Virus record (IMG/VR): IMGVR_UViG_3300025602_000002
Coordinates: 166,718 to 205,518 of that record
Source: a virus
Lineage: Duplodnaviria > Heunggongvirae > Uroviricota > Caudoviricetes
DNA length: 38,801 nt
Reading direction: 5' to 3' (one strand)
A program made the position numbers and the translations under genes. The notes below the pieces were generated by a model. The model saw only the letters and a list, made by a program, of their open reading frames with translations. It was not told the DNA's origin and did no database searches. Below are positions 5,471 to 38,801 of this stretch, piece after piece. The first letter of the stretch is position 1; each line of letters opens with the position of its first letter.

Positions 5471-5492
5471 ATGTGCTCTCCATTGTTAGGTG

Positions 5493-5564
5493 CAGGGACG
5501 GCAGGACTCGAACCCGCATTGCCGGTTTTGGAGACCGGAGCTCTACCAATTGAACTACGCCCCT
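5493..5564 (-). tRNA. trnW: tRNA-Trp (anticodon CCA)
   Basis: AGGGGCG-TA-GTTC-AATTGGTA-GAGC-T-CCGGT-CTCCAAA-ACCGG-CAAT-GCGGG-TTCGAGT-CCTGC-CGTCCCT-G; full cloverleaf, anticodon at 5531-5529, discriminator G, 3' CCA not encoded. Confidence 0.97.
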
Positions 5565-6124: not shown

Positions 6125-6152
6125 AATATAGATCTCCTTAGTTATTACATAG

Positions 6153-6162
6153 TTCTTATACC
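6153..6162 (-). promoter_or_regulatory. GGTATAAGAA motif copy 6
   Basis: TTCTTATACC on + strand about 30 nt upstream of ATG 6124, in the divergent intergenic region. Confidence 0.55.
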
Positions 6163-6189
6163 TTTATTGCATAAATTATAAAAAAAACC

Positions 6190-6218
6190 TTTACAAATAA
6201 ATTCGTAACACTTATATT
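6190..6218 (+). promoter_or_regulatory. Sigma70-like promoter for the + strand cluster
   Basis: TTTACA (6190-6195), 17 nt, TATATT (6213-6218). Confidence 0.55.
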
Positions 6219-6258
6219 GAGATATCAATTGATAATTATTTTTAAGGACATAAAATAC

Positions 6259-6603
6259 ATGGATAAAGCACAACACGTGTTTATGAAATACGCTGAGCGT
6301 AATAAACGTAAACCTAATCGTCTATTATTAGATTTAGCCCCAGGAGCATTATCTGGGACTGTTACCAGTTTATTGCTTCACCCCTTAGATACCCTACAAG
6401 TTCGTCGTCAGACGGCTCCTCCCTCTCAAAATGTTGACTTTAATAAACCTCCTAAACTTACGAAACCAATAGGTAAATTAAAGGCTTTTAAATCTTTGTA
6501 TAAAGGTTTAGGATTAAAATTGTTACGTAACATTCCAACGTTAGCTATAGGATTTGGTACCTACGGAGTTACTAAAGACTATCTAGACAAAAAATATAAA
6601 TAG
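6259..6603 (+). CDS. Tagged protein with a single mitochondrial-carrier (SLC25-like) repeat
   Basis: Start ATG 6259 after AAGGA; MDKAQHVFMKYAE tag; GALSGTVTSLLLHPLDTLQVRRQT and SLYKGLGLKLLRNIPTLAIGFGTYGVTKDYL match both halves of the carrier repeat. Confidence 0.75.
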   Translation: MDKAQHVFMKYAERNKRKPNRLLLDLAPGALSGTVTSLLLHPLDTLQVRRQTAPPSQNVDFNKPPKLTKPIGKLKAFKSLYKGLGLKLLRNIPTLAIGFGTYGVTKDYLDKKYK

Positions 6604-6611
6604 GAGTTAAA

Positions 6612-8651
6612 ATGGATATTCAATCACCATTAGGAACTGTAGTAGGGTTAGGAGCCTCAGCAGTCCCGTCGATTCCACAACCAAAAAGGCGTACTAAATT
6701 TAGAAAACTTATGAACGCCTCTTTAGTAGGAGCATCAAGTGCTATTTCTACGTTGGTGCCTGGCGCGCCCTTACAAAGTGCAGCAGCGGCGTCATTAGCT
6801 CCGGAAGGGAGAAAGGTGCAAGCAGCTCAAGCAGCCCTTACTGGGTCTATGTTAGGGTCTTTACCTGGGGCGGCACTGTTTACTAGACAATTTTTTGCAA
6901 GTAATAAAAAAAACATAGAAGATTTAAAAGGAAAAACATTCAACGACATAAGCGATGTTACAAAGGCCTATTTAAAAAATCAAAAGCAGTTAGCTAAAAA
7001 TTTTATAAAACAACCAGATTTACCATCAAAAGCTTTTCAATTATTTACTAATAAAATAAAAGGCACCTTAACAAAATTTAAAACATTCAAAGTACCAGCA
7101 GCCGCGTTATTAGCAGGAAGTGCTATAGGTTCTGGCATAGGATACCATAGGAGTACAAATATGAAGAAACAAGGAGAGTTTTCTAAAGCAGAACTATTAT
7201 TTAATAAAACTGCAGGACCGACTGCTGCAAGCGTGGCTGAGACAGGGCAGAAGGTATTAAAAAGAACTAAAGAGTTATTTTCTGGCAATAAGATGAAGTC
7301 TAAGATAGATGCAGCTAAAAAGAGCGGGAAAGAGCTTGACGCTAACGAGGCTGGTAAAGAAATTGTAAAAGTATACGCTACACGAGGTGCGGCGGGTACA
7401 GGCGCAGCAGCTGTATTAGCAGACGCAGTTATAGATAAAAAAGCGGAATATGTATTTTTAAAAGTTGCAATTAATGCGAAGGCATTAAAATTAAAGGCCA
7501 TAACAATTGCCCAGGAAGCGAAAGCAACCTCAGATGCGGTTGTTAAAGGAACTTCAAAAAGAGTAGTGAAAAATAAAAGTCTGGCACCCGTAGATGCCCG
7601 ATGGACCTCTTCTGGAGGTAAAGGAACCGCTGCGAATACTTCGAAATCTTCGAAAGCGTCAGCAGCTTCAACTACTTCGAAATCTACAAAATCTACAAAG
7701 GCTACAACTTCAACTGCTCCGGCAAAAACTGAGCAACCTGCGGCAAAGAAAGGAATAAGTTTAAATGCTAAACTTCTAGGGTTTGGCGCAGGAACAACTC
7801 TCGCAGGAATAGGGATAGGGCGCGCTAGTAAAACTGGATCGGTATCTGCTAGATATTTGGAACTAGTAAAAGGTAGCCGTCTAAAGGGCCTTAAACAAAG
7901 TAAAGCAGATTATATAAATAAATTAAAAACTGTGACCTCTAAACTTCATAAGGATCATCCTAAGTATACGGAACTATTAAAAAATGTAGAAAAAGAGATT
8001 AAAATCGAAACAGCTAAAGTAGTAGGAACAGTAGTAGGAACTCCTACAGCAGCAGCTACCTTAGTAGGCGGAGCTATGTCTTTAAATAAAAAAGCAGAAG
8101 CTGTAATGAGTAAATTAGGTAAAAAGTATCCTTATATAGATTTAGCACATGATCTAGAGTTGTCTAGAATAAGAGAAGAGCTACAAGCGCGAGCGCATGC
8201 TAGAGCCTTACAGGAAAGTCCTTCTGGCAAATGGAATAAAGAAAACGCTCCAGAGTATTCGGCGAGCTCAAAAAAGGAAAGAAGTAAACAATATAGGACT
8301 GCCACAATACCTAAAACAACGGGGGTCGGAGCAGCATTAGGAGCTTGATCAGGTACAAAATGGTTAGGTAAAAATCCTCCTAGTAATTATTGAGCTGTAA
8401 ACCCAGAACCGCTTTCAGTATTAAGAAAAATGAAAGGTTTAGGAAAAAATGTTGCAGTAGGAGCTGTAGCGGGTGCAGCGTTTGGAACAATGATAGCAGC
8501 TGCCGTAGGGAGCGATAAAGCTCAGCGAAAATATTTGAAAGTTAAAGGATTAAGAGGCGGTCAAGATCTTACCAGTAAACAGCTAAAAAAATATGTACCA
8601 GAGGCTTTAACAACGTCTAGATTAATTAATGATATAGACTACGCATCTTAA
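6612..8651 (+). CDS. Large basic Ala/Gly/Lys-rich putative virion protein (679 aa, 2 TGA=Trp)
   Basis: Track ORFs 6612-8348 and 8430-8651 are in frame and separated only by TGA codons; three internal tag copies; several GxxxG hydrophobic segments. Confidence 0.75.
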
Positions 8652-8669
8652 AGAGTGGGAAATAATTAA

Positions 8670-8892
8670 ATGAAAAAACAAGCAGTAAAAGACTTAGTTA
8701 CCGAAGTAAAACATCTGACTCACATGATTGAGGGTAAAAAGGGTTTTAATGTAATGAGAGGTCTCTACGGACCCAACGCAATTGCAAATTTTGCTAAATG
8801 AAAAAAAAGCAAATCCTGGAAAGAAATATAAAGATTATGCTCAGTTATACAAAAAAGCAGAATACATTTTCTCAAAAATAGTCAATGCCTAA
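8670..8892 (+). CDS. Small tagged protein interrupted by a +1 shift at an A8 run
   Basis: ATG 8670 frame reaches TGA 8799 then A8 (8801-8808); the +1 frame gives ANPGKKYKDYAQLYKKAEYIFSKIVNA and ends ATGCCTAA over the next start; unshifted frame ends at 8831. Confidence 0.5.
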
Positions 8893-9427
8893 ATTCTTTC
8901 CAGTACCAAAATTTAAGATAGATCGAGGATTCGATCCAACCCTCATTCAACAAAAAGCTGGATGAGACAATATCTTTTTGCAGGGACGAAAGAACAAAGC
9001 TAAATATAGAGCCTTAATAGCTAATAAATCTATACCATTTATGAGTAGAGAAGTGTTTACTAGGAAACCCCTCCCTAACGTTACTAGGGAAGGTTATAAT
9101 GGGATCTTAACCTCTTTTAAGAAGGTAGCTCAGGTATTTGAGAAGTATGCTAAATATACCTCTTGTAAAATCAAGTTTAAGAAACTTCAAAAACATAAAA
9201 AACCTCTAACTCCAGAAGAGCGCGCGTTAGTGATGAAAAGCAAAGCAGTTTGGAATTTTCATTTTGGTAGAGATGGCAAACGCCAAGCAACTCCGGCTGT
9301 ATGGAAATCGGTACAACCTGATGGTAGAACTATATATGTAACTAATACTCATCGAGCCTTTAATACAGCTCCTACAGTAAAAGGCGCAATTAACAGATAT
9401 CACACATTTATAAAAGGAACAGCATAA
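8885..9427 (+). CDS. Hypothetical tagged protein (180 aa, 1 TGA=Trp)
   Basis: ATG 8885 in frame with track ORF 8978 via TGA 8963; internal KVAQVFEKYA tag; compact C-terminal domain KAVWNFH..TPAVWKSV..YVTNTHRAF. Confidence 0.75.
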
Positions 9428-10149
9428 TGAATAAAGCACAATACATATTTGAAAAATGAGCTTCAACTGCGATGATAAGAGCGGTTAAGGCTAGAAAGAT
9501 CTCTGCAGAAGCAGCGGGAAAAGCTACTCAAACTTTAGGACTTAAGTCTAGATATTTAAAAGATTTGGGCCAGGGAGTTGAAGGGTTGGCACAGTTAAGG
9601 ACTTCCGCAAAACACCAACTTCAAGTTGCTAAACTCTATGACCCTAAGGGAGGGCTTTCGAGTAAAGAGGTATTAAAAGAAAAAGTTCGTACTTTTAAAA
9701 CAATGTCAGGCAAAGGCAATTTTGCCAAGTATTATGGAAAAGATCCTAAACGACCCATCACTTTCCACGAGTATAGTCCAGGAACTGCCGGAATTGGGAG
9801 CTCTATAAAACAAACTCTTCTAACAAAGGCACAAGCTACACTGAGAGGTGTACCTATGGCCGACGTAGTTAGAAACCCAGGAAACATTCAGGGTGGAAAA
9901 ATAATTGACTTCCTTCCCGCAGGTAGAAGGGGGCGCAAAGCTCTACAAACAACCACTGTCGGGAAACAGACTGAGGGATTTAAAAAAGCGGTTAAGAGTG
10001 AAGTGTGGAAGGCTCTGTCTTTAAAGAAAAAACCAGCTGCAGCTATAGAAGGTATTAAGTACCAAGCTATAGATTTTGGAAGTAAGTTATTAGAGAGCGG
10101 TATGACCCGAAATTCTAATATACCTAAAGCAATATACGGTAAGAAATAA
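9427..10149 (+). CDS. Tagged atypical protein-kinase-like protein
   Basis: TAATG start, MNKAQYIFEK(TGA=W)A tag; LGQGVEGLAQL, VAKLYD, TFHEY, DVVRNPGNI, KIIDF. Confidence 0.65.
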
Positions 10150-10150
10150 A

Positions 10151-11551
10151 ATGGATAAAGCCCTACACGTATTTAATAAGTATGCTGCCGATCAGCCCCA
10201 CCAAGCTAGAGTATTAAAGAAGCTTGAGAAGACTGATCAAATGTTGTTATATCACGGCTTAGGTTCTGGTAAAACCTATACGGCATTACGTGCAGGTGAA
10301 AAGTTTAAGAAACCTGTAACAGTTATAGGCCCTGCAGCTTTAAAACATAATTTTCCTAAAGAGAGGCTTAAGCATAAAATAAAAGGGGAAGGTTCTTATT
10401 ATTCTTATAATAAACCTCCAACAAAAAATGTTTCAAAAGACGTAGTTGTATTCGATGAAGCCCACAGAATGGGTAGAACAGAGTCCCAACGTTCACACTA
10501 TCCAGATAAAATAAAGGGTAAGAAAACCCTGCTTCTATCAGGAACTCCTATTAGAAATGAACCTGCAGAATTAATACCGCTTTTACGGGGTTTAAATATT
10601 AATATAGGTAGAGATAAAAAAAGATTTAACCAGGCGTTTATTCAAGAGACTAAACAAAAACCTGGATTTTTTGCACGAGTATTTAAGGGTATTAAGCCTG
10701 GAACGGTAAAACGTGGGAAAAATTTAGGAGTTCTTAGAAAAGCTCTACGAGGCAAAGTAGATTATCATGCCCCAACTAAAGATAAAAATTATCCTTCAGT
10801 TATAAATGAGCGTATAGAAACTACAATGTCTAAAAAACAACAAGCAGCTTATAAAATGGTTATGAAAGAAGATCCTGATTTAAAGTATAAAATTAGGCAT
10901 GGAATAGCTCCTTCTAAAACAGAATCATCTCGAATGAATGCATTCTTAGGAGCGGCACGCCAAGTATCTAATCGTCCGGGCAAATACAATTTAAGCGCTA
11001 CAGAGGCCGATGCTCCTAAACTAAATAGAGCGATGTCAGAAATTTCTAAGAGGCATAAAGCTAATAAAAAATATCGTGGAGTAACTTACTCTACATACTT
11101 AGGTCACGGAGTGGACCCAATGGCCAAAAGACTTAAGAGAACTAAGATACCTTTTGGCACCTTTACAGGAAGACAGACTGACCTAGAAAAAGCTGATGTA
11201 GTAAAGAAATATAATTCTGGCAAGATTAAACACTTACTTATATCTGGAGCGGGAGCAGAAGGGCTTGATTTAAAAGGAACAAGGCTTCTTCAAATATTAG
11301 AGCCTCATTGGAATGAACCTACTCTAAAACAAGTAAAAGGTAGAGTAAATAGATTCAAGTCTCATGAACATTTAAAAAAACAAAATCGAAATATAACGAT
11401 TCAAACATATATTAATAAGCCACGTAAAACTAGATTCTTACGTAGACAACATGCGGGAACTGATGAGTATCTAGAATTGCTATCAAAAAATAAACAAAAT
11501 CTTGTAAATGATTTTACTAAAGTATTAAAGGAAGTAGGAAGTGATGGATAA
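10151..11551 (+). CDS. Tagged superfamily 2 (SNF2/NPH-I-like) helicase/ATPase
   Basis: LLYHGLGSGKT (I), VFDEAH (II), SGTP (III), GAEGLDL (V), QVKGRVNR (VI); N-terminal MDKALHVFNKYAA. Confidence 0.9.
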   Translation: MDKALHVFNKYAADQPHQARVLKKLEKTDQMLLYHGLGSGKTYTALRAGEKFKKPVTVIGPAALKHNFPKERLKHKIKGEGSYYSYNKPPTKNVSKDVVVFDEAHRMGRTESQRSHYPDKIKGKKTLLLSGTPIRNEPAELIPLLRGLNINIGRDKKRFNQAFIQETKQKPGFFARVFKGIKPGTVKRGKNLGVLRKALRGKVDYHAPTKDKNYPSVINERIETTMSKKQQAAYKMVMKEDPDLKYKIRHGIAPSKTESSRMNAFLGAARQVSNRPGKYNLSATEADAPKLNRAMSEISKRHKANKKYRGVTYSTYLGHGVDPMAKRLKRTKIPFGTFTGRQTDLEKADVVKKYNSGKIKHLLISGAGAEGLDLKGTRLLQILEPHWNEPTLKQVKGRVNRFKSHEHLKKQNRNITIQTYINKPRKTRFLRRQHAGTDEYLELLSKNKQNLVNDFTKVLKEVGSDG

Positions 11552-11996
11552 AGCTGCGCAAGTATATAATAAATATTTTTATAAGTTTGGAATGGCGAGA
11601 GTACCCTCGTTACAAAGTTGGGATGACGTTATTAGCCAGGTAAAGAGCCATACCCGCCTTAAACCAAAATTGGACCGCGTAACACGAATGAAGTCAGTTA
11701 CGTCTAATAGGAATGAAGGAAAAGATATAATAGAGAAAGTATTACCAGAAATAGATATAGTCAAAACTAAAATGAATATTGGAGATAAAGGGGTGGTACA
11801 AACTAAAAACCATCAACTTATATTTCACAGAGCTAATCCGGATTGGGGAGAAAGCGGTGATATGCATATGTCAACATATTATACAAAAGACATGCCCATT
11901 CAAAAAAGGTTTGGTGAAAAACTAATTAATTTTACTGATGCTAGTTTAAAAAAGAAAATAAAAGACAAATATCCAGAATTAGAGATGAATTGGTAA
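11544..11996 (+). CDS. Hypothetical tagged protein
   Basis: MDKAAQVYNKYF start overlapping the helicase stop. Confidence 0.75.
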   Translation: MDKAAQVYNKYFYKFGMARVPSLQSWDDVISQVKSHTRLKPKLDRVTRMKSVTSNRNEGKDIIEKVLPEIDIVKTKMNIGDKGVVQTKNHQLIFHRANPDWGESGDMHMSTYYTKDMPIQKRFGEKLINFTDASLKKKIKDKYPELEMNW

Positions 11997-12000
11997 ACTA

Positions 12001-13284
12001 GTGCAAAATAAACCCTCTATATCAGACCACTATCAATATGGTAAACGTCTTCTTAGGCATAAGGCCTTTATGATTAGGCCCGGCAGGACTATAGGAGCCC
12101 CATACGGGACGCTTTTAGCTCATGACCTCTCTAAGTTCCGCCCAAGCGAGTGGAAGCCTTATGTAGCCTATTGGCAGGGCCCTAAAGGTATTACTGGTAC
12201 GAAGGATCCAGAAGTAACTAGAAAATTTAGAGAAGCAGCAGCGCTTCACTACAAACGAAACCCACATCATGCCCACAAACTTGGTTTGGTCTCTGAAAGA
12301 AAAAATAAATTAGAAGCAGTAACTGATTGGTATGCGACCTCAAAAGCTAACCAAGCTAATACAAAGGATTTTCCTAGTTTCGGCACCTGGGTGAGAACTC
12401 AAAGCCCAGCAGCTAGAAAGAACTTAATAGATTTAGGAATAAACACGGAGAAATTAGCAATGCAAGATAAAGTAACATTAATATTTAAGAAATATGCAGA
12501 AGTTCAGGATTTAAAAGCTAAAATCAGGAGCGGAGTAACAAATATAAAAAATAATGAAGGAGTGGCAAAAGCTACCGCTACCGTAAAAGCTATAGATAAG
12601 AAAATTAATTGAAGTAAAGTAGATAACGTGGCTACAGGGTTAGCCGTAGGAGCGAAAGGTTACCATCTTAAAACCGTACATTCACAGGTGAAGGCGGGTA
12701 AGGCCGCTCAAAAGGAAATGGCAAAACAACCATTTATGAAGGACGTTCCCGGGTATGTAAACTCTAAAATGGGAGACAGTGTAAGCGTTATTCACGATAA
12801 AGCCAGTTCTAAAAAATGAGTTAAGAAAAATGTAGGTAGAGGACCAGGAGGTTTTATATCTCATCAAATGAATAAAATTATATTAAAGCAACCTAACGCG
12901 GCAGCTACTATGGGTAAACACGGCCCCGCAGTTATAATTGGATCAAAAGGGTCTTCTCAAAAAATTATAGATCACGAACTAGGACATATCGCGGATTTTA
13001 AGAATAAGGGTCTTACTTCTCCAAAAAAATTAGGAAAACATTCAAGAGGAAAAGCAACAGATGTTTTTCATAATCTTGTGGGCAAGCCTGAAAAAACAAA
13101 TAGATTTAAAATGGAAATCGATGCTTGGGATAACGCTGGAGTACCTGCAGACGACGCTCTTAGAGTTAAGGCGTTAAAAACTTATAGGCAACAAGCAGTA
13201 GGGGGAACTAGATCTGGGATAGCTAATTTAGCTACAACTGCTTTTAAAGCGTTCACCACTGCAAAAAAGAATAAGATAATATAA
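12001..13284 (+). CDS. DUF5662-like HD-type domain fused to HExxH zincin-like domain (427 aa, 2 TGA=Trp)
   Basis: Track ORFs 12001-12612, 12628-12819 and 12868-13284 are one frame joined by TGA; LLAHDLSKFRPSEW...HYKRNPHH; internal DKVTLIFKKYA tag; DHELGH...EIDAW. Confidence 0.75.
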
Positions 13285-14018
13285 TGGATAAAGCACAGTA
13301 TATATTTGAAAAATTAGGAAAAGACTCTTCAGCTACCAGAGATTTTTTCGCAGGAGTAGAGCCTACCGGACGTTGGACATTTGAAAGCGCTATTAATAAT
13401 AAAGAAAATCATAAAAGGCATATGGGTACAGCGGTTGCAGGAGGTTTTATAGGGAGCTCTGTAATTACTCCAGCAGTGTTGTCTACTATGGTAAAAGGGC
13501 CAAGCGCCTCTAGACAGGCCGGACCCGGCATAAAGGCTAAAGCCCATGCAGTAGCTTCTGAAGCTTTTAAACCATATAAAGTATTAGGGCAGTCTCTTCA
13601 TGCGCGTAGTAAAATTAATAAAGCATTAAAAACTAAATCTAAAGTATCTAAAAAAGATTTTTCTGTTATTCTGGATACATTAAAAAACCTGTCTATAAAG
13701 GATTTAGAGAAAACAAAAGGTCCTTCAGAAAAAGGCAAGGTATTATGAAAAAATAAACGAGGGGATACTATAAAATCAAAAACTAACTTTAAGGATGTAA
13801 TTAAGGAAACATTTACTAGCGCAAGAGCTAATCCAAAGATACTGAAATCAGTAAGACACGGGTTAAACCGAGGTATAACTTTAATATCTTCTGGAATATT
13901 AGCGGCAGGAGCTATAGGAGGGGTAGCAGCAGGAGCTCAATATAATTCTGGATTAAGAGCGCGCAAGATGCTTGTTCCAGGGACTACAAAAAAATCTAAA
14001 ATTTTGGAGACAAATTAA
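13284..14018 (+). CDS. Tagged basic protein with hydrophobic Gly/Ala segments (244 aa, 1 TGA=Trp)
   Basis: MDKAQYIFEKLG; readthrough of TGA 13746 ends at a TAA overlapping the next ATG. Confidence 0.8.
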
Positions 14019-14746
14019 TGAAAGATAAAGCAACTTACATATTTGAAAAAATAGCTAAAACAGCGTTAGTAAGGGCCTTTAATCGTGGAACATTGTCGCT
14101 TAACAACGTAAAACGTATTTCACAGAGCTTACAGTTGAAACCAAGAACTTTAAGAAAGGCTGGTCGAGGCAATGAGGCGCTCGTACAACTAAGAACCTCT
14201 CCGAAACATGGAGTAGAAGTGGCCAAAATTCATGACACGACTAGTCCAATGTTTAGCCGTAAAGCCTTTAATACTAAAATACAAGTTTCAAAAAAACTGA
14301 ATAAATCACCACATTTTGCTAAGTTTCACAGAGCCGATAAAAAAAAGAAAATAACATACCAACAATATAGTGTTCCGAGTGAAAAAACATTTGACGAGCA
14401 CGTAAAACTTATAAGAAGTGCACGTAAAGATTCTAGAAAAATAATTGGTAAAACCGTGCAAGATCTTCACTCTTCAAATGTTGCTGGAAATAAAGTAATT
14501 GATTTTTTATCTCCAGATATAGCAAAAAACAGATCCACTGAACTTGGCAAGATATTTAGTAAGGGAAGTAAAAAAAAGTATAGAGCTAGAAAGCATATGA
14601 AAACCTTATCAGGACAGGCTAAACATGATTTTTTTAATAGACCCTCTTCAGAAAAGTCTACATATGATAAATGAACAGTTCGCATGTCTAAGTACAAAAA
14701 AAATAAAATAACAGATAGTAACTTACTTAAAAAGGTATATGGATAA
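14018..14746 (+). CDS. Tagged atypical protein-kinase-like protein, paralogue of 9427 gene
   Basis: MKDKATYIFEKIA; AGRGNEALVQL, VAKIHD, TYQQY, DLHSSNV, KVIDF; 1 TGA=Trp. Confidence 0.7.
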
Positions 14747-14750
14747 AAAT

Positions 14751-15359
14751 ATGAAAGATAAAGCAACAATAGTATTTGAAAAATTAGCGGGTAGATCCGT
14801 AGAAAGTTTAGGACTGATTCCTGAAGGTATGACTGTTAAACAATGGAACGACGACTATAATGCTGGCTATGAAAAATACAAAAAAATTCATGGTAAAAAG
14901 CTACACGCATATGATAAGCAATATAGATCGACCCATACATATCCTAAAGTTAGTAAGCAGCAGTTCAAAAAGAATAGGCGAAGAGCAGTATTAAACGCTG
15001 TTGGAGTGGTGGTGGCGGGGGCTCTTACAGGCGCAGCAATACTTCGTAAGTATGCAGGATCAAGAGGGTTAAAACGCCTTAATAGAGTATATAAGAGTGT
15101 TGACAATTCTCGTAGCTTAGCATTTAGACAATCAGAAAAAAATTGAAGAAACTACGATAACCATACTACTAAGAATACTGAAAAAATTCTAAGACTTGGT
15201 AGAGTATGAGACCGTTCTGCTACAAAAACAAACATACTTGATAAGAAGACAGAGCTTGCAGGAAATAAATTATATAGAAAAAAACAAGAAGGGAAACTTA
15301 GACATGTAAAAGGCATGATGAAAACTATTAAGAATGGTGATGAAGTGGGATTAGCCTAA
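14751..15359 (+). CDS. Tagged basic protein with one hydrophobic helix (202 aa, 2 TGA=Trp)
   Basis: MKDKATIVFEKLA; readthrough ends at a TAA overlapping the next ATG. Confidence 0.8.
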
Positions 15360-15961
15360 TGGATAAAGCAACAATAGTATTTGAGAAACTAGCAATCTCT
15401 ACAAGACATATAAACAAGGCTCTAACAAAGTCCAAATTACAAAATACTAAAAATTTGTGAAACGTACTTGATCCTAAAAGGCAGAAATACAGAAACCCAA
15501 CACGACTAGAATTAAAGGCTGACTCTCTAATTCACAAAAATAATACTAATCTACGAAAAAGAAAAGCTGGAAGATTTGACCGAACACAAGATCTTGAACT
15601 TATGAATAGTATAAAAACTGCTGAAGGCCTAACTAAATCTCAATTACAATTTTCAGGGGTAACTGCGGCTACTCAAAATAAAAGACTTCTTCCAGGAAAT
15701 ATAGCTACAAAGGCACAAAAGGCAGATATTACCACTATTAAATTACAGAATAAGGCAGCAGTTAAAGCGTCACAACCTTTTTTACTTAAGAAAACAGCAA
15801 AGTTTATACCAAAAAATCTTAAGGCTTATAAACTGAAGAATAGTATAAGTAAAGCTAAAATTTCAGATAAGAAAAATACTATACTCCTACAGAAAGAAAA
15901 AAATAGTGCAGCAGCAAATCGCATAGAGATGGCGAAGAATTGAGCTAAACGATACAAGTAG
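15359..15961 (+). CDS. Tagged Lys-rich protein (200 aa, 2 TGA=Trp)
   Basis: MDKATIVFEKLA at 15359, in frame with track ORF 15602; TAG stop. Confidence 0.8.
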
Positions 15962-34631: not shown

Positions 34632-34992
34632 TGGAGAATTAATAGATAAGCTATCTATTCTTCAATTAAAAACTGAGAATTTTACTGACCCAGAAAAGAT
34701 TAAAAATGTACAAACAGAATTTGAGGCTTTACAACATAGCGTTGTAGAGCTATTGAATTTCTCATTGGATTCTGAAAGTTATATGAATCTTTATAATTGT
34801 AATGCAGAGCTATGGGATATAGAGGACCAACTGCGTAGAAAAGAACAATTAAAAGAGTTTGATGAGGAATTTATAAAATTAGCGCGAGCAGTGTATTACA
34901 CTAATGACACTAGAGCTAATTTAAAAAAAATAATTAACAACGAAACCAACTCTATGTTTATTGAGGAAAAAGAATACGTAAACTATAACTAG
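34612..34992 (+). CDS. DUF6165-like protein
   Basis: MKIEISNGELIDKLSILQLK...NAELWDIEDQLR...LARAVYYTNDTRA..K..IN. Confidence 0.75.
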   Translation: MKIEISNGELIDKLSILQLKTENFTDPEKIKNVQTEFEALQHSVVELLNFSLDSESYMNLYNCNAELWDIEDQLRRKEQLKEFDEEFIKLARAVYYTNDTRANLKKIINNETNSMFIEEKEYVNYN

Positions 34993-35006
34993 TTTGGAGA
35001 CCCCGC

Positions 35007-38000
35007 ATGTCAGGACAAATAAAAGCCAAACAAATATCGGATGTATATAGCCAATCACAGGCTAATGCAACATTTTCAGCAAAATCCCACAACGCATCCG
35101 CCGCACCACCAGCGTCCCCAATAACTGGACAGACTTGGTGAGATTCATCTAATGAAGTATTAAAAACATGAACAGGTAGTACATGAGTAGCCTCTGAAGG
35201 TACCTCAGGTACTTCTGGCTCAAGCGGAGCTAGCGGTGCTAGCGGTACTTCCGGATCAAGCGGAGCTAGCGGTGCTAGCGGTACTTCCGGAACTAGCGGT
35301 ACTTCTGGATCAAGCGGATCAGCAGGTTCAAGCGGATCTTCGGGGACTTCCGGAACTTCTGGAACTTCAGGATCAAGCGGAACTTCAGGATCAAGCGGTA
35401 CGAGTGGTACAAGTGGTACGAGTGGTACTTCAGGTTCAAGCGGTTCAGCAGGTTCAAGCGGTTCAAGCGGTACGAGTGGTACTTCTGGATCAAGCGGGAC
35501 TTCAGGAACTTCAGGATCAAGCGGATCATCAGGATCAAGCGGAACTTCGGGAACTTCTGGTTCAAGCGGGACTTCAGGAACTTCTGGTTCAAGCGGGTCA
35601 GCAGGATCAAGCGGTTCTTCCGGAACTTCCGGATCAAGCGGTACGAGTGGAACTTCAGGATCTTCTGGAGAGAAAGGAGTTACTGGAGATTCAGGATCAA
35701 GTGGATCAAGCGGAACCTCAGGCTCTTCTGGAGCTAAAGGAGACGCTGGAACGAGTGGTTCAAGCGGAACTTCTGGTTCAAGCGGAACTTCAGGATCAAG
35801 CGGTACTGGCGGTACTTCTGGGTCTTCTGGAGGAGTTGGAACGAGCGGTACTTCAGGATCAAGCGGAGCAGCAGGAACTTCAGGTTCAAGTGGAGATACG
35901 GGGGTGCCCGGAGCTTCAGGGTCAAGTGGTTCTTCCGGAACCTCAGGATCAAGCGGTACGAGTGGTACTTCGGGGTCAAGTGGAACTAGCGGTACTAGTG
36001 GTACTTCGGGTTCGAGTGGATCAAGCGGTTCAAGCGGTTCAAGCGGTACGAGTGGTACTTCAGGTTCAAGCGGTACGAGTGGTACTTCAGGTTCAAGCGG
36101 ATCAAGCGGTTCAAGTGGATCAAGCGGTACGAGTGGTACTTCCGGAACTAGCGGAACTTCGGGATCGAGTGGAGCAGCTGGAACTTCAGGAACAAGCGGT
36201 TCAAGCGGAATAGACGGAACTTCCGGGTCAAGTGGTACGAGCGGTATAGGCGGAACTTCCGGATCTTCAGGAGGTGCAGGTACAAGTGGTACTTCTGGAT
36301 TAAGCGGTACGAGTGGTACGAGCGGTTCTTCTGGGACTTCCGGATCAAGCGGGACTTCTGGATCAAGCGGTTCAAGCGGTTCAAGCGGCACAAGCGGTAC
36401 TTCCGGTTTAAGCGGAACGTCAGGTTCAAGCGGTACAAGTGGAACTTCAGGATCAAGCGGAACTTCAGGATTAAGCGGAACTTCAGGATCAAGCGGTACA
36501 AGTGGAACTTCAGGTTCAAGCGGATCAGCAGGATCAAGCGGTTCAAGCGGATCAAGCGGATCAAGCGGTACGAGTGGTACTTCGGGGTCAAGTGGAACTA
36601 GCGGTACGAGCGGTACTTCGGGCTCAAGCGGGGATAGTGGTACGAGTGGTACTTCAGGGTCAAGTGGGACTTCAGGAATTAGCGGTACTTCAGGGTCAAG
36701 TGGGACTTCAGGAATTAGCGGTACTTCAGGATCAAGCGGAACTAGCGGTACTAGCGGTACTTCTGGGTCAAGCGGGACTAGCGGTACTAGCGGTACTTCT
36801 GGGTCAAGCGGGACTGCGGGTACAAGCGGTACTTCTGGATCAAGTGGAACTAGCGGTACAAGTGGAACCTCAGGGTCAAGCGGTTCAAGCGGTTCAAGTG
36901 GAACTAGCGGTTCAAGCGGAACTTCAGGAACTTCTGGAACTTCAGGTTCAAGCGGAACTAGCGGTACGAGTGGTACCTCTGGATCAAGCGGTTCAAGCGG
37001 TTCAAGCGGTGTAAGCGGCACTTCCGGATCAAGCGGTACGAGTGGTACTTCAGGTTCAAGCGGTTCAGCAGGTTCAAGCGGTTCAAGTGGAACTTCAGGA
37101 ACTAGCGGAACTTCAGGATCAAGCGGAACCTCAGGAACTTCAGGATCAAGCGGTACGAGTGGAACTTCGGGATCTTCTGGAGAAAAAGGAGTTATTGGGG
37201 ATTCAGGATCTAGCGGGTCAAGTGGGACCTCGGGCTCTTCTGGAGCGAAAGGAGACGCTGGAACAAGCGGTTCAAGCGGAACTTCCGGAACTAGCGGAAC
37301 TTCAGGTTCAAGCGGTACTGGCGGTACCTCTGGGTCTTCTGGAGGAGTTGGAACTAGCGGAACTTCAGGATCAAGCGGAGCTGCAGGAACTTCCGGTTCA
37401 AGCGGTACTTCCGGTTCAAGCGGAACTTCCGGAACTAGCGGAACTTCGGGTTCAAGTGGAACTTCCGGAACTAGCGGAACCTCAGGATCAAGCGGTATAA
37501 GTGGAACTTCAGGATCAAGCGGTTCAAGCGGTTCAAGCGGATCAAGCGGAACCTCAGGATCAAGCGGTACAAGTGGTACGAGTGGTACTTCAGGTTCAAG
37601 CGGTACGAGTGGTACAAGTGGTACTAGCGGGTCGTCTGGAACTAGCGGGTCAAGTGGAACTTCCGGTTCAAGTGGTACGAGCGGAACCTCAGGATCTTCT
37701 GGAGAAAAAGGGGTTACGGGGGATTCAGGTACAAGCGGCTCAAGTGGAACTAGCGGTACAAGTGGAACTTCAGGATCAAGCGGAACTAGCGGTACGAGTG
37801 GTACTAGCGGGTCATCTGGAACAAGCGGATCAAGCGGAACTTCAGGAACTTCTGGAACTTCAGGATCAAGCGGAACTTCAGGAACTTCTGGAACTTCCGG
37901 GTCAAGCGGAACTTCAGGAACTTCAGGAACTTCAGGTTCAAGTGGATCTGCAGGATCAAGTGGTTCTTCCGGAACTTCAGGATCAAGCGGTACAAGCGGT

Positions 38001-38801
38001 ACTAGTGGTACTTCGGGGTCAAGCGGTACAAGTGGTACGAGTGGTACTTCAGGTTCAAGCGGAACTAGTGGTACTTCTGGGTCAAGCGGTTCAGCAGGTT
38101 CAAGCGGTTCAAGCGGAACCTCTGGTTCAAGTGGTACTTCAGGCTCAAGTGGAACTTCAGGTACAAGCGGAACTTCAGGTTCAAGCGGAACTTCAGGTAC
38201 AAGCGGAACTTCTGGGTCAAGCGGTTCAGCAGGTTCAAGCGGTTCTTCCGGAACCTCAGGTTCAAGCGGTACGAGTGGTACTTCAGGATCAAGCGGTACA
38301 AGTGGAACTTCAGGATCAAGCGGAACTTCAGGATCAAGCGGAACTTCAGGAACTTCAGGATCAAGCGGAACTTCAGGAACTTCAGGTTCTAGCGGAACCT
38401 CCGGGTCAAGTGGAACTTCAGGAACTTCAGGTTCAAGTGGATCGGCAGGTTCAAGCGGTTCAAGCGGAACTTCGGGATCAAGCGGAACTTCAGGAACTTC
38501 AGGTTCAAGCGGTTCAAGCGGATCATCAGGATCAAGCGGAACTTCCGGGTCAAGCGGAACTTCAGGAACTTCAGGTTCAAGCGGATCAGCAGGATCAAGT
38601 GGCTCTTCCGGAACCTCCGGGTCAAGCGGTACGAGTGGAACTTCCGGGTCAAGCGGTACGAGCGGAACCTCCGGATCAAGTGGTTCAAGCGGTTCAAGCG
38701 GTTCAAGCGGTTCAAGCGGTTCAAGCGGAACGTCTGGATCATCTGGTAACACCGGAAATGCAGCCGGACATGTCCAGTACAACTTTGACAGCTCAACAAC
38801 T
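35007..38801 (+). CDS. Collagen-like tail/virion fibre, partial (at least 1265 aa, 3 TGA=Trp)
   Basis: ATG 35007; PASPITGQTW(W)DSSNEVLKT(W)TGST(W) fibre motif, then Gly-X-Y repeat; open at the window end. Confidence 0.88.
35199..38762 (+). repeat. Gly-X-Y repeat, 396 triplets by length, mainly G-S-S and G-T-S
   Basis: 9-nt periodicity (GGN-TCA-AGC, GGA-ACT-TCA); Gly every third codon, mirrored by Pro every third residue in the antisense shadow ORF. Confidence 0.95.

What the first reader, a model, noticed from the sequence alone, without database searches (positions are those of the whole stretch)
6259..6603. Stand-alone single mitochondrial-carrier (SLC25) repeat in a phage
The 114-aa protein has the odd helix ending in HPLDTLQVRRQ (cf. 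Px[DE]xx[KR]x[KR], with Q for the first basic residue) and the even-helix segment LYKGLGLKLLRNIPTLAIGFGTYGVTKDYL. Known carriers are threefold-repeat eukaryotic proteins, with three-repeat examples in giant viruses and Legionella. A one-repeat form could homotrimerise and resembles the postulated ancestral unit. It is the first gene of the tagged array.
Basis: partly seen in the sequence, partly recalled or inferred. Interest (0 to 1): 0.85.

Follow-up and report, generated by a model that had tools for sequence, protein, structure and literature searches.

The report
One-repeat mitochondrial carrier protein in phages
A roughly 210-kb marine phage and about 30 relatives encode a 100-130-residue protein that is one third of a mitochondrial carrier; the papers I could search say this transporter family has no prokaryotic homologues and none mentions a phage one, so the long-postulated one-repeat form can now be tested directly.

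Summary
ORF 6259-6603 (+) encodes 114 aa that match Pfam Mito_carr once, end to end (E 1.2e-14, 54 bits against a cut-off of 22). A profile of its phage relatives hits the solved carriers UCP2, UCP1 and AAC (E 1e-17 to 1e-12).

- **The gene is real.** It has one copy per genome, dN/dS is 0.09-0.27, and a relative has an in-frame TGA (Trp) codon of the late-gene code.
- **It belongs to a family.** I found 31 distinct one-repeat sequences, all on large marine tailed-phage contigs. Pattern scans of 185,579 prokaryotic species genomes found none.
- **The usual position is next to an actin-like gene.** In 13 of 23 relatives the gene sits directly after a phage actin-like (Volactin) gene, two genes before the portal. 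In this window it has moved to the head of an array of genes that share an N-terminal peptide tag.
- **The motifs are partly kept.** The proline kink, Asp, Gln, Y-K-G, GxxxG and the cavity 'contact-point' Lys/Arg are kept (31/31). One partner of each salt-bridge gate is missing.

Homo-oligomerisation, transport and origin (capture from a eukaryote or relic) were not resolved. No publication on it was found.

The parts
6259..6603 (+). Gene for the 114-aa single-repeat Mito_carr protein (P0001), stop codon included
   Evidence: ORF and translation; Pfam PF00153 E 1.2e-14; dN/dS 0.09-0.27 among homologues
6244..6248 (+). AAGGA Shine-Dalgarno, 10 nt before the ATG
   Evidence: read directly from the sequence
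6125..6258 (.). AT-rich intergenic region between the leftward standard-code genes and the rightward late genes; probably a divergent promoter region (inferred)
   Evidence: ORF map on both strands; not tested further
6259..6300 (+). N-terminal amphipathic tag helix (aa 1-14, MDKAQHVFMKYAER), shared with other genes of the array
   Evidence: The tag motif occurs 14 times in the 141.8-kb record, 13 of them at window 6262-15362, against 0-1 in shuffles. It is a helix in both models. It is conserved in homologues.
6319..6414 (+). Odd-numbered carrier helix (aa 21-52) with G29xxxG33 and the signature P42-L-D44-T-L-Q47-V-R49-R-Q51
   Evidence: helix 21-52 in the AF2 models; aligns with PLDTAKVRLQ, PTDVVKVRFQ and PVDVVKTRYM of UCP2; conservation counts
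6466..6507 (+). Short 'matrix' helix (aa 70-80) ending in Y81-K82-G83, the [YWF][KR]G motif. The loop before it (aa 52-69) varies in length across the family.
   Evidence: AF2 helix 70-80; Y/W81 and G83 in 31/31; loop variation
6508..6594 (+). Even-numbered carrier helix (aa 84-112) with K87, R90 (the carriers' contact-point position), P93, A96xxxG100 and Y102-G-V-T-K106
   Evidence: AF2 helix 84-112. K/R87 and K/R90 are present in 31/31. Position 90 aligns with the Arg of all three UCP2 repeats.
6612..15961 (+). The rest of the tagged array: genes at 6612 (three internal tags), 8885, 9427, 10151 (SNF2 helicase), 11541, 12001 (DUF5662), 13284, 14018, 14739 and 15359. Most need TGA=Trp.
   Evidence: code-4 ORF list; tag scan; Pfam and PHROG annotations

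Best explanation
SHOWN. The gene encodes a genuine, selected, stand-alone copy of the roughly 100-residue repeat that builds mitochondrial (SLC25) carriers. From the N-terminus it has a tag helix, an odd helix with GxxxG and P-x-D-x-x-(Q/T)-x-R-x-Q, a variable loop, a short helix ending in Y-K-G, and an even helix with two invariant basic residues, a Pro and Y-G-x-x-K. It belongs to a family of at least 31 distinct one-repeat proteins, all found on large marine tailed-phage contigs. There is one copy per genome. The usual position is directly after an actin-like gene and two genes before the portal. In this window's lineage it has moved to the head of a late, TGA-recoded array of genes with the same N-terminal tag.

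INFERRED.
1. The protein sits in the host inner membrane and works as a homo-oligomer, most simply a trimer that rebuilds the six-helix carrier barrel. The invariant charged residues (D44, R49, K87, K/R90) only make sense facing a water-filled cavity, and no second repeat gene is available as a partner.
2. The cavity is strongly basic: three copies of K87 and of K/R90, the latter at the position of the carriers' substrate contact point. It would therefore bind or pass a small anion such as phosphate or a nucleotide.
3. The base of the matrix gate and the acid of the cytoplasmic gate are missing throughout the family. It therefore cannot gate by the two salt-bridge networks of strict exchangers, and is more likely a uniporter or a leak.
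4. The tag helix docks the protein to a shared phage partner encoded in the actin-portal module, either for loading into the head or for attachment to the actin-like filament.
5. Origin is unresolved. One old acquisition in the ancestor of this phage clade, probably from a eukaryote, is the more economical reading.
For: - **Homology:** Pfam E 1.2e-14 over 5-95/96. The phage-family profile hits UCP2 at 1.5e-17, UCP1 at 9e-17 and AAC at 1e-15, and aligns to each of their three repeats.
- **Family:** phmmer and the profile search found 97-132-aa single-stretch relatives. With the IMG/VR loci the count is 31 distinct sequences.
- **Phage context:** terminase, protease and major head protein in the window. 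In relatives there are portal, tail fibre and Amidase_2 genes.
- **Selection:** dN/dS 0.09-0.27. The homologue in the 99%-complete 210-kb relative has an in-frame TGA.
- **Single copy:**
- **Conserved residues:** G29 31/31, P42 30/31, D/E44 31/31, Q51 29/31, Y/W81 31/31, G83 31/31, K/R87 31/31, K/R90 31/31, P93 30/31. Position 47 is never K/R, and position 103 is acidic in 3/31.
- **Contact point:** position 90 aligns with the Arg of each UCP2 repeat, and Y-G-x-x-K aligns with YDSVK, YDLIK and YEQLK. The equivalent AAC residues bind the nucleotide phosphates (PMC6700394).
- **Secondary structure:** the predicted helix order fits a carrier repeat.
- **Position next to Volactin:** 13 of 23 loci; elsewhere the slot holds a tagged non-carrier protein or nothing.
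- **Tag:** 14 copies against 0-1 in shuffles, and conserved arrays in relatives.
Against: - No experiment or reliable model shows membrane insertion, oligomeric state or transport.
- Hydropathy is weak: the 19-residue Kyte-Doolittle maximum is 1.54 for the odd helix and 0.68 for the even helix. Carriers are similar, but standard bacterial insertion is not assured.
- Both the N-terminal segment and the loop are strongly basic, so the topology is ambiguous.
- With one partner of each gate network missing, a trimer may not close at all, and could have a non-transport role.
- R/K49 is kept in only 22/31.
- The confident model (pLDDT 83) used an alignment that included eukaryotic repeats, so it leans towards the carrier fold. 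Structure searches with it were not significant.
- The partner of the tag is unknown.
Confidence: 0.5

Rival explanations
1. Membrane adaptor, not a transporter. The two-helix repeat only anchors the N-terminal tag helix in the membrane. The tag binds the phage actin-like (Volactin) filament, in the way small adaptor genes follow actin-like genes in ParM/ParR-type systems (own knowledge). The other tagged proteins would be cargo on the same filament.
For: In 13 of 23 loci the gene directly follows Volactin and often overlaps it. Where the carrier repeat is absent, the slot can hold another tagged small protein: the own genome's 92-aa protein, and two in L021. All four virus records with the repeat also carry Volactin.
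Against: A simple anchor would not need the carrier-specific residues kept at 29-31 of 31 (P42, D/E44, Q51, Y81, G83, K/R87, K/R90, P93). Charged residues inside a lone hairpin are unfavourable. In this window's lineage the gene lies about 100 kb from Volactin. Binding of the tag to Volactin is untested.
Confidence: 0.2
2. Virion-delivered membrane effector. The tag is a capsid-targeting signal like that of the T4 internal proteins. The protein is packed in the head, ejected with the DNA and inserts into the host inner membrane at infection, where it depolarises the membrane or helps entry. This overlaps the best explanation and differs in timing and route.
For: One conserved short N-terminal peptide sits on unrelated proteins. 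That is exactly how T4 loads its diverse internal proteins (PMC3012670). The array is in the late TGA-recoded block just upstream of the terminase, protease and head genes. Late-made helicase and DnaJ-type proteins make most sense as cargo for the next infection. In relatives the gene sits two genes before the portal. The weak hydrophobicity would allow soluble storage.
Against: No virion proteome is available. No conserved protease site follows the tag. The tag also occurs inside proteins. PHROGs gives no virion annotation for any tagged protein.
Confidence: 0.2
3. Holin-like or lysis-timing protein: a small late two-helix membrane protein with a charged C-terminus that forms lesions or depolarises the membrane at the end of infection.
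For: It is small, has two predicted membrane helices and a Lys-rich C-terminus, and belongs to the late gene class. In the Volactin lineage an Amidase_2 endolysin lies three to four genes upstream.
Against: There is no endolysin near the gene in the window. Holins are not known to share carrier motifs. The helices are far less hydrophobic than typical holin helices.
Confidence: 0.07
4. Artefact: eukaryotic contamination, a chimeric contig, or a decaying captured exon with no function.
For: Many short database 'one-repeat' proteins are only first exons of fungal succinate-fumarate carrier genes.
Against: The identical gene is flanked by phage genes on 51 contigs from independent samples. It has a bacterial-type ribosome-binding site. 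A relative has an in-frame TGA=Trp. dN/dS is 0.09-0.27. It holds a conserved position in many phage contigs.
Confidence: 0.02

Closest known systems
Eukaryotic SLC25 mitochondrial carriers (for example UCP2 2lck, UCP1 8g8w, ADP/ATP carrier 1okc and 6gci)
   Same: The repeat is homologous, with highly significant profile matches. It shares GxxxG, the Pro kink, Asp, the second basic residue, the Gln, [YWF][KR]G, the even-helix Pro, the small-residue motif, the Tyr and Lys of the second gate motif, and the basic contact-point residue.
   Different: It has one repeat per chain instead of three. It is encoded by a phage of bacteria. The gate lysine of Px[DE]xx[KR] is always Q, T or similar, and the acid of [YF][DE]xx[KR] is nearly always Gly or Ala. 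An extra N-terminal tag helix is present, and the matrix loop varies from about 8 to 40 residues.
Three-repeat carriers outside eukaryotes: Legionella LncP and mimivirus VMC1 (own knowledge, not re-checked here)
   Same: Carrier-family genes in a bacterium or a virus, generally read as captures from eukaryotic hosts.
   Different: Those are complete three-repeat carriers used inside a eukaryotic host cell. This is a single repeat in phages whose genomes carry a peptidoglycan amidase and other bacterial-host features.
SemiSWEET versus SWEET sugar transporters (own knowledge; Xu et al. 2014 is listed as reference 179 of PMC12410006)
   Same: The same logic: a short prokaryotic unit that must oligomerise to give the architecture which the eukaryotic protein has in one chain.
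   Different: SemiSWEET dimers are experimentally established. Oligomerisation here is only inferred.
MTCH2/MTCH1, divergent SLC25 relatives that act as outer-membrane insertases (title and abstract of bioRxiv 10.1101/2022.09.15.508165)
   Same: A precedent for a carrier-fold protein with a non-transport job. That MTCH2 lacks the gate networks is my own recollection and was not checked.
   Different: MTCH2 is a multi-repeat eukaryotic protein. No sequence affinity to it was tested here.
CysZ/YihY, proposed remote bacterial homologues of AAC (bioRxiv 10.64898/2026.03.31.715626)
   Same: Both bear on whether SLC25 has relatives outside eukaryotes.
   Different: That claim rests on structural similarity with a circular permutation plus one motif. 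The phage family is detected by plain sequence profiles at E 1e-14 to 1e-17. The preprint states that no prokaryotic homologues were known and does not mention phages.
T4 internal proteins with a capsid-targeting sequence (PMC3012670)
   Same: Diverse unrelated proteins share only a short conserved N-terminal peptide.
   Different: Packaging, cleavage and ejection are untested here. The tag also occurs at internal positions, and no conserved cleavage site follows it.

Membership tests
Mito_carr / SLC25 repeat (domain-level homology) | Significant match to the PF00153 profile over the whole repeat | tested here: met
   E 1.2e-14, 54.3 bits against a gathering score of 22.3, profile 5-95/96. The family profile hits solved carriers at E 1e-17 to 1e-12.
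Canonical SLC25 carrier | Three tandem repeats (six transmembrane helices) in one chain | tested here: not met
   One stretch only in a 114-aa protein. The nearest relatives are also single-stretch. There is one hit per genome, including a 99%-complete one.
Canonical SLC25 carrier | Matrix gate signature Px[DE]xx[KR]x[KR] with the salt-bridge base | tested here: not met
   P 30/31 and D/E 31/31, but the first K/R is 0/31 (T 21, Q 6, others 4). The second K/R is present in 22/31.
Canonical SLC25 carrier | Cytoplasmic gate motif [YF][DE]xx[KR] on the even helix | tested here: not met
   Y/F 29/31 and K/R 28/31, but the acidic residue occurs in only 3/31, mostly replaced by Gly. The motif aligns with YDSVK, YDLIK and YEQLK of UCP2.
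Canonical SLC25 carrier | GxxxG on the odd helix and a small-xxx-small motif on the even helix | tested here: met
   G29 31/31, G33 29/31, A/G96 31/31, G/A100 29/31. The role of these motifs is taken from PMC6700394.
Canonical SLC25 carrier | [YWF][KR]G motif at the end of the matrix helix (lipid-binding site in carriers; own knowledge) | tested here: met
   Y/W81 31/31, K/R82 24/31, G83 31/31.
Canonical SLC25 carrier | Basic or specific contact-point residue on the even helix, three residues before the Pro | tested here: met
   K/R90 31/31. It aligns with the Arg of each UCP2 repeat.
Canonical SLC25 carrier | Carrier-repeat fold: kinked odd helix, short matrix helix, even helix | tested here: inconclusive
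   The helix order fits. Foldseek ranks UCP2 and AAC first, but at E 1.1 and 3.1 with TM 0.52-0.54. VIA-align gives only generic helical hairpins with Z of 6.2 or less. The confident model used eukaryotic repeats in its alignment.
Canonical SLC25 carrier | Solute transport across a membrane | not testable with these tools
   Needs reconstitution in liposomes.
T4-type capsid-targeted internal proteins | A shared short N-terminal peptide on otherwise unrelated proteins | tested here: met
   14 tag copies, 13 of them in one 9-kb block, against 0-1 in shuffles. Arrays are conserved in L008 and L011.
T4-type capsid-targeted internal proteins | Presence in the virion, and removal of the tag by the prohead protease | not testable with these tools
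   No proteome is available. No conserved residue follows the tag.
Holins | Small membrane protein encoded next to the endolysin that controls lysis | tested here: inconclusive
   Amidase_2 lies 3-4 genes upstream in the Volactin lineage. None is near the gene in the window.

The most novel reading that the evidence does not exclude
The phage proteins descend from the pre-triplication, one-repeat stage of the mitochondrial carrier family and still work as symmetric homotrimers. On this reading the SLC25 fold was not invented in eukaryotes; it came from a phage or bacterial two-helix protein. The evidence does not exclude it. The phage clade forms one group that is as distant from repeats 1, 2 and 3 as these are from each other, and it is not robustly nested in any of them.
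Probability: 0.12. Interest if true: 0.95.

Novelty: new variant of a known kind. Interest (0 to 1): 0.8.

Why it matters
Mitochondrial carriers are the largest solute-carrier family of eukaryotes. Their origin is an open problem. They are assumed to have arisen by triplication of a two-helix unit, yet a 2026 preprint still states that no prokaryotic homologue is known. I found no paper describing a natural one-repeat form.

This phage family is a natural, selected one-repeat form that is easy to detect by sequence. It lets one ask at the bench whether a single repeat can assemble into a carrier-like barrel, what a perfectly symmetric binding site transports, and what the two salt-bridge gates contribute. 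That holds whether the family turns out to be a relic or a capture.

For phage biology it adds a new kind of membrane protein. It is tied to two poorly understood features of large marine phages: an actin-like gene next to the portal, and a peptide-tag system shared by many late proteins.

Tried and rejected
- **Homotrimer prediction** (three copies, 20-row alignment): no verdict, score 0.01, chain pLDDT 43-44.
- **Structure searches.** The AF2 monomer from the phage-only alignment had pLDDT 58 and no Foldseek match. With eukaryotic repeats added, pLDDT rose to 83; UCP2 and AAC ranked first but not significantly. VIA-align against 48,161 chains gave only generic hairpins. Structure search cannot decide for a two-helix unit.
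- **Family libraries.** PHROGs and NCBIfam have no family for it.
- **GenBank phages.** tblastn against 50,697 phage records found no match.
- **Prokaryotic genomes.** Pattern scans of the species-representative genomes with two alignments found no relative. An attempt with the 22-row alignment failed for lack of a conserved stretch. These scans use short exact patterns, so absence is not proof.
- **Second repeat gene.** None in the 141.8-kb record at E up to 10.
- **Fusion with the next gene.** Read-through of the TAG stop was rejected.
- **GxxxG as evidence for oligomers.** I dropped this argument after reading that GxxxG and the small-xxx-small motif pack within one domain (PMC6700394).
- **Repeat-level tree.** The phage clade is one group (support 71) next to two repeat-3 sequences (support 81), and the tree is otherwise unresolved. 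No donor could be named.
- **Neighbouring tagged genes.** Pfam and PHROGs explain only the SNF2 helicase and DUF5662.
- **Host.** Not identified. One homologue lies in a bin labelled Rhodobacteraceae, which fits poorly with the window's 28-42% GC over most of its length.

Full report
**The observation**

Window 6259-6603 (+) is an open frame of 114 codons. It starts at an ATG preceded by AAGGA at 6244-6248 and ends at TAG.

The phage is known from earlier notes to read TGA as Trp in its rightward late genes. I saw this myself in the neighbouring genes, most of which need one or two TGA codons read through. This frame has no TGA, so its product is the same under both codes. Reading through its TAG stop would add nine residues and meet another TAG, so it is not fused to the next gene.

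Pfam finds one family, Mito_carr (PF00153), at E 1.2e-14 and 54.3 bits against a curated cut-off of 22.3. Residues 22-112 cover profile positions 5-95 of 96 in a single stretch.

**The replicon**

The window is part of an IMG/VR virus record of 141,836 bp, estimated 67% complete. The identical protein was seen on 51 contigs, the longest of 211,738 bp. On another sample's contig it has the same neighbours.

The window encodes a terminase large subunit, a head maturation protease, a major head protein and an SNF2 helicase. Related contigs carry a portal, tail fibres and an Amidase_2 peptidoglycan hydrolase. This is a large tailed phage of bacteria. It comes from marine water-column metagenomes, including Tara samples. 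The host was not identified.

**A family, not an oddity**

An exhaustive phmmer search of 1.8 billion representatives gave 3,867 hits. Nearly all are three-repeat eukaryotic carriers at about 25-35% identity. The three closest are single-stretch proteins of 105, 97 and 284 aa at 44-46% identity.

A profile search limited to short proteins found about twenty more proteins of 108-132 aa. One of them carries the automatic database name 'MC/SLC25 family protein'. The same search also returned many first-exon fragments of fungal succinate-fumarate carriers. Those are a different thing and were set aside.

Using the neighbouring actin-like gene as a handle brought in more members. The family now has 31 distinct sequences.

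- Pairwise dN/dS is 0.09-0.27.
- The homologue in a 99%-complete 210-kb relative contains an in-frame TGA, which places the gene in the recoded late set.
- Each genome examined has one copy and no second, divergent repeat.
- Pattern scans of one genome for each of 185,579 prokaryotic species found no relative, and neither did tblastn against 50,697 GenBank phages.

**Genomic position**

In most relatives the order is: endolysin, a 356-aa protein, a small membrane protein, an actin-like protein (Pfam Volactin), the carrier repeat, a 160-170-aa protein, then the portal.

- Of 23 informative IMG/VR loci with this actin-like gene, 13 have a one-repeat carrier gene directly after it.
- One locus has two other small proteins there, both starting with the tag.
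- The rest have another protein or nothing.
- The window's own genome keeps the module about 100 kb away. Its slot holds a 92-aa non-carrier protein that starts with the same tag.

In the window's lineage the carrier gene has moved. It now opens a 9.7-kb block in which the peptide M-D-K-A-x-x-[VI]-F-x-K-[YLI]-[AG] starts eight genes and recurs inside others. That gives 13 copies here plus the one at the actin locus, against 0-1 in shuffled translations. The regular expression was written from these copies, so the count shows clustering and is not an independent test. Two relatives have the same arrays: 8 copies in 10 kb and 10 copies in 16 kb, on proteins that include the SNF2 helicase and a DnaJ-domain protein. 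All family members have a tag-like amphipathic N-terminal helix.

**What is kept and what is lost**

A profile of the phage family hits solved carriers: UCP2 at 1.5e-17, UCP1 at 9e-17 and bovine AAC at 1.2e-15. It aligns to each of their three repeats. In those alignments:

- The phage P-L-D-T-L-(Q/T)-x-R-x-Q lies on PLDTAKVRLQ, PTDVVKVRFQ and PVDVVKTRYM.
- The phage Y-G-x-x-K lies on YDSVK, YDLIK and YEQLK.
- Phage position 90 lies on the arginine of each UCP2 even helix.

Counts across the 31 sequences:

| Position | Role in carriers | Count |
|---|---|---|
| G29 | GxxxG | 31/31 |
| G33 | GxxxG | 29/31 |
| P42 | helix kink | 30/31 |
| D/E44 | matrix gate acid | 31/31 |
| 47 | matrix gate base (K/R) | 0/31 |
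| R/K49 | second basic residue | 22/31 |
| Q51 | Gln of the signature | 29/31 |
| Y/W81 | [YWF][KR]G | 31/31 |
| G83 | [YWF][KR]G | 31/31 |
| K/R87 | even helix | 31/31 |
| K/R90 | contact point | 31/31 |
| P93 | even-helix Pro | 30/31 |
| Y/F102 | cytoplasmic gate Tyr | 29/31 |
| 103 | cytoplasmic gate acid | 3/31 |
| K/R106 | cytoplasmic gate base | 28/31 |

The family keeps the residues that shape the fold and line the cavity in carriers. It has consistently lost one partner of each of the two inter-domain salt-bridge networks, which form and break during carrier transport (PMC6700394). The loop between the helices varies from about 8 to 40 residues.

**Structure**

AlphaFold2 with the phage-only alignment was unsure (pLDDT 58). 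With 38 eukaryotic repeats added it was confident (pLDDT 83). Both runs give the same order: helix 3-14 (tag), helix 21-52, a short helix near 70-80, and helix 84-112. That is the order of a carrier repeat, but the second alignment biases the model towards it.

Foldseek puts UCP2 and the ADP/ATP carrier first (TM 0.52-0.54), at non-significant E-values. An exhaustive structural alignment returns only generic helical hairpins. The case for homology therefore rests on sequence, where it is strong.

**How it most likely works**

The steps below are inferred. The protein has four invariant or nearly invariant charged residues inside its two predicted membrane helices, and no partner repeat in the genome. 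The only known setting in which these residues make sense is the water-filled cavity of a carrier barrel. A homo-oligomer, most simply a trimer, is therefore the economical reading.

Such a trimer would carry a symmetric ring of basic residues at the level of the carriers' substrate site. The equivalent AAC residues bind the nucleotide phosphates. That points to a small anion.

Without either salt-bridge gate the protein should behave as a weakly gated uniporter or a leak, not a strict exchanger. The hydropathy is low (maxima 1.54 and 0.68), as in real carriers.

The tag helix presumably docks the protein to a common phage partner. I could not separate two readings of that partner:

- Loading into the head, as with the T4 capsid-targeting sequence (PMC3012670). 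This fits the late expression and the enzyme cargo.
- Attachment to the actin-like filament. This fits the tagged protein that follows the actin gene.

**Origin**

- The phage profile scores repeats 1, 2 and 3 of 109 carriers at mean 34.3, 32.6 and 39.2 bits.
- In a tree of 106 repeats the phage sequences form one group (support 71) beside two repeat-3 sequences (support 81). Deeper branches are unresolved.
- Mean identity of phage to eukaryotic repeats is 22.5-24.6%. Identity among the three repeat classes is 23-25%.

No recent donor exists among the sampled carriers, and a pre-triplication origin is not excluded. The restriction to one phage clade and the absence from cellular prokaryotes make one old capture the more economical reading. 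I put it at roughly two to one or better.

**Novelty**

Full-text searches found no paper on a one-repeat or phage-borne carrier. A preprint of April 2026 states that SLC25 has no known prokaryotic homologue and proposes only remote, permuted relatives, CysZ and YihY.

I rate this a new variant of a known kind: a known domain in an undescribed stand-alone architecture and host. Its interest is high because it makes the triplication hypothesis and the role of the gates directly testable.

Noticed in passing
G000:C1:129989-135555 (outside the window; L018), and L012, L013, L015, L017, L021-L044: A conserved module in this phage clade: endolysin, a 356-aa protein, a small membrane protein, an actin-like (Volactin) protein, a variable slot, a 160-170-aa protein, then the portal. 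The slot holds a one-repeat carrier in 13 of 23 loci, other tagged small proteins in some, and nothing in others.
   Followed up: partly
G000:C1:132332-132610 (minus strand; outside the window): A 92-aa, very basic protein starts with the same tag (MDKAEYVFEKYA). It sits in the slot after the actin-like gene, where relatives have the carrier repeat.
   Followed up: partly
window 6612-8651 (+): Read with two TGA=Trp codons, the next gene gives 679 aa. It has three internal copies of the tag and several Gly/Ala-rich hydrophobic segments. It looks like a multi-part membrane-active protein, or a polyprotein joined at tags. It has no Pfam or PHROG match.
   Followed up: partly
window 12001-13284 (+): A 427-aa protein (two TGA=Trp) has an N-terminal DUF5662 domain, an internal tag copy near 12466, and a C-terminal HELGH string that looks like a zinc-protease motif.
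   Followed up: no
window 10151-11551 (+); L011 11486-12553 and 12559-13959; L008 5494-6894: An SNF2-family helicase carries the tag at its N-terminus in all three phages. A tagged protein of the L011 relative carries a DnaJ-type motif. Enzymes made late but tagged would make sense as cargo for the next infection.
   Followed up: partly
L011 8001-8300: The carrier-repeat homologue of the 99%-complete 210-kb relative has an in-frame TGA. Gene callers using the standard code report only a 62-aa fragment (P0200).
   Followed up: yes
window 34958-38801: The GC content rises to 42-53%, and long ORFs overlap on both strands. The minus-strand 1274-aa frame matches phrog_31248 in five repeated stretches. 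Which strand is coding was not settled.
   Followed up: no
window 5492-5564 (-): A tRNA-Trp (CCA) gene lies in the leftward standard-code arm, just before the divergent intergenic region.
   Followed up: no
L015 15124-17338; L017 8681-12801: Within about 10 kb of the carrier gene, the Volactin-lineage phages carry an Hc1 histone-like gene, a GP88 gene, a reverse transcriptase (RVT_1) and, in L017, a vWA protein.
   Followed up: no
L003 2653-3507 (P0061); L023 and L029: Some family members are 203-284 aa. They have a low-complexity N-terminal extension, so the tag-like helix lies inside the protein, just before the repeat.
   Followed up: partly
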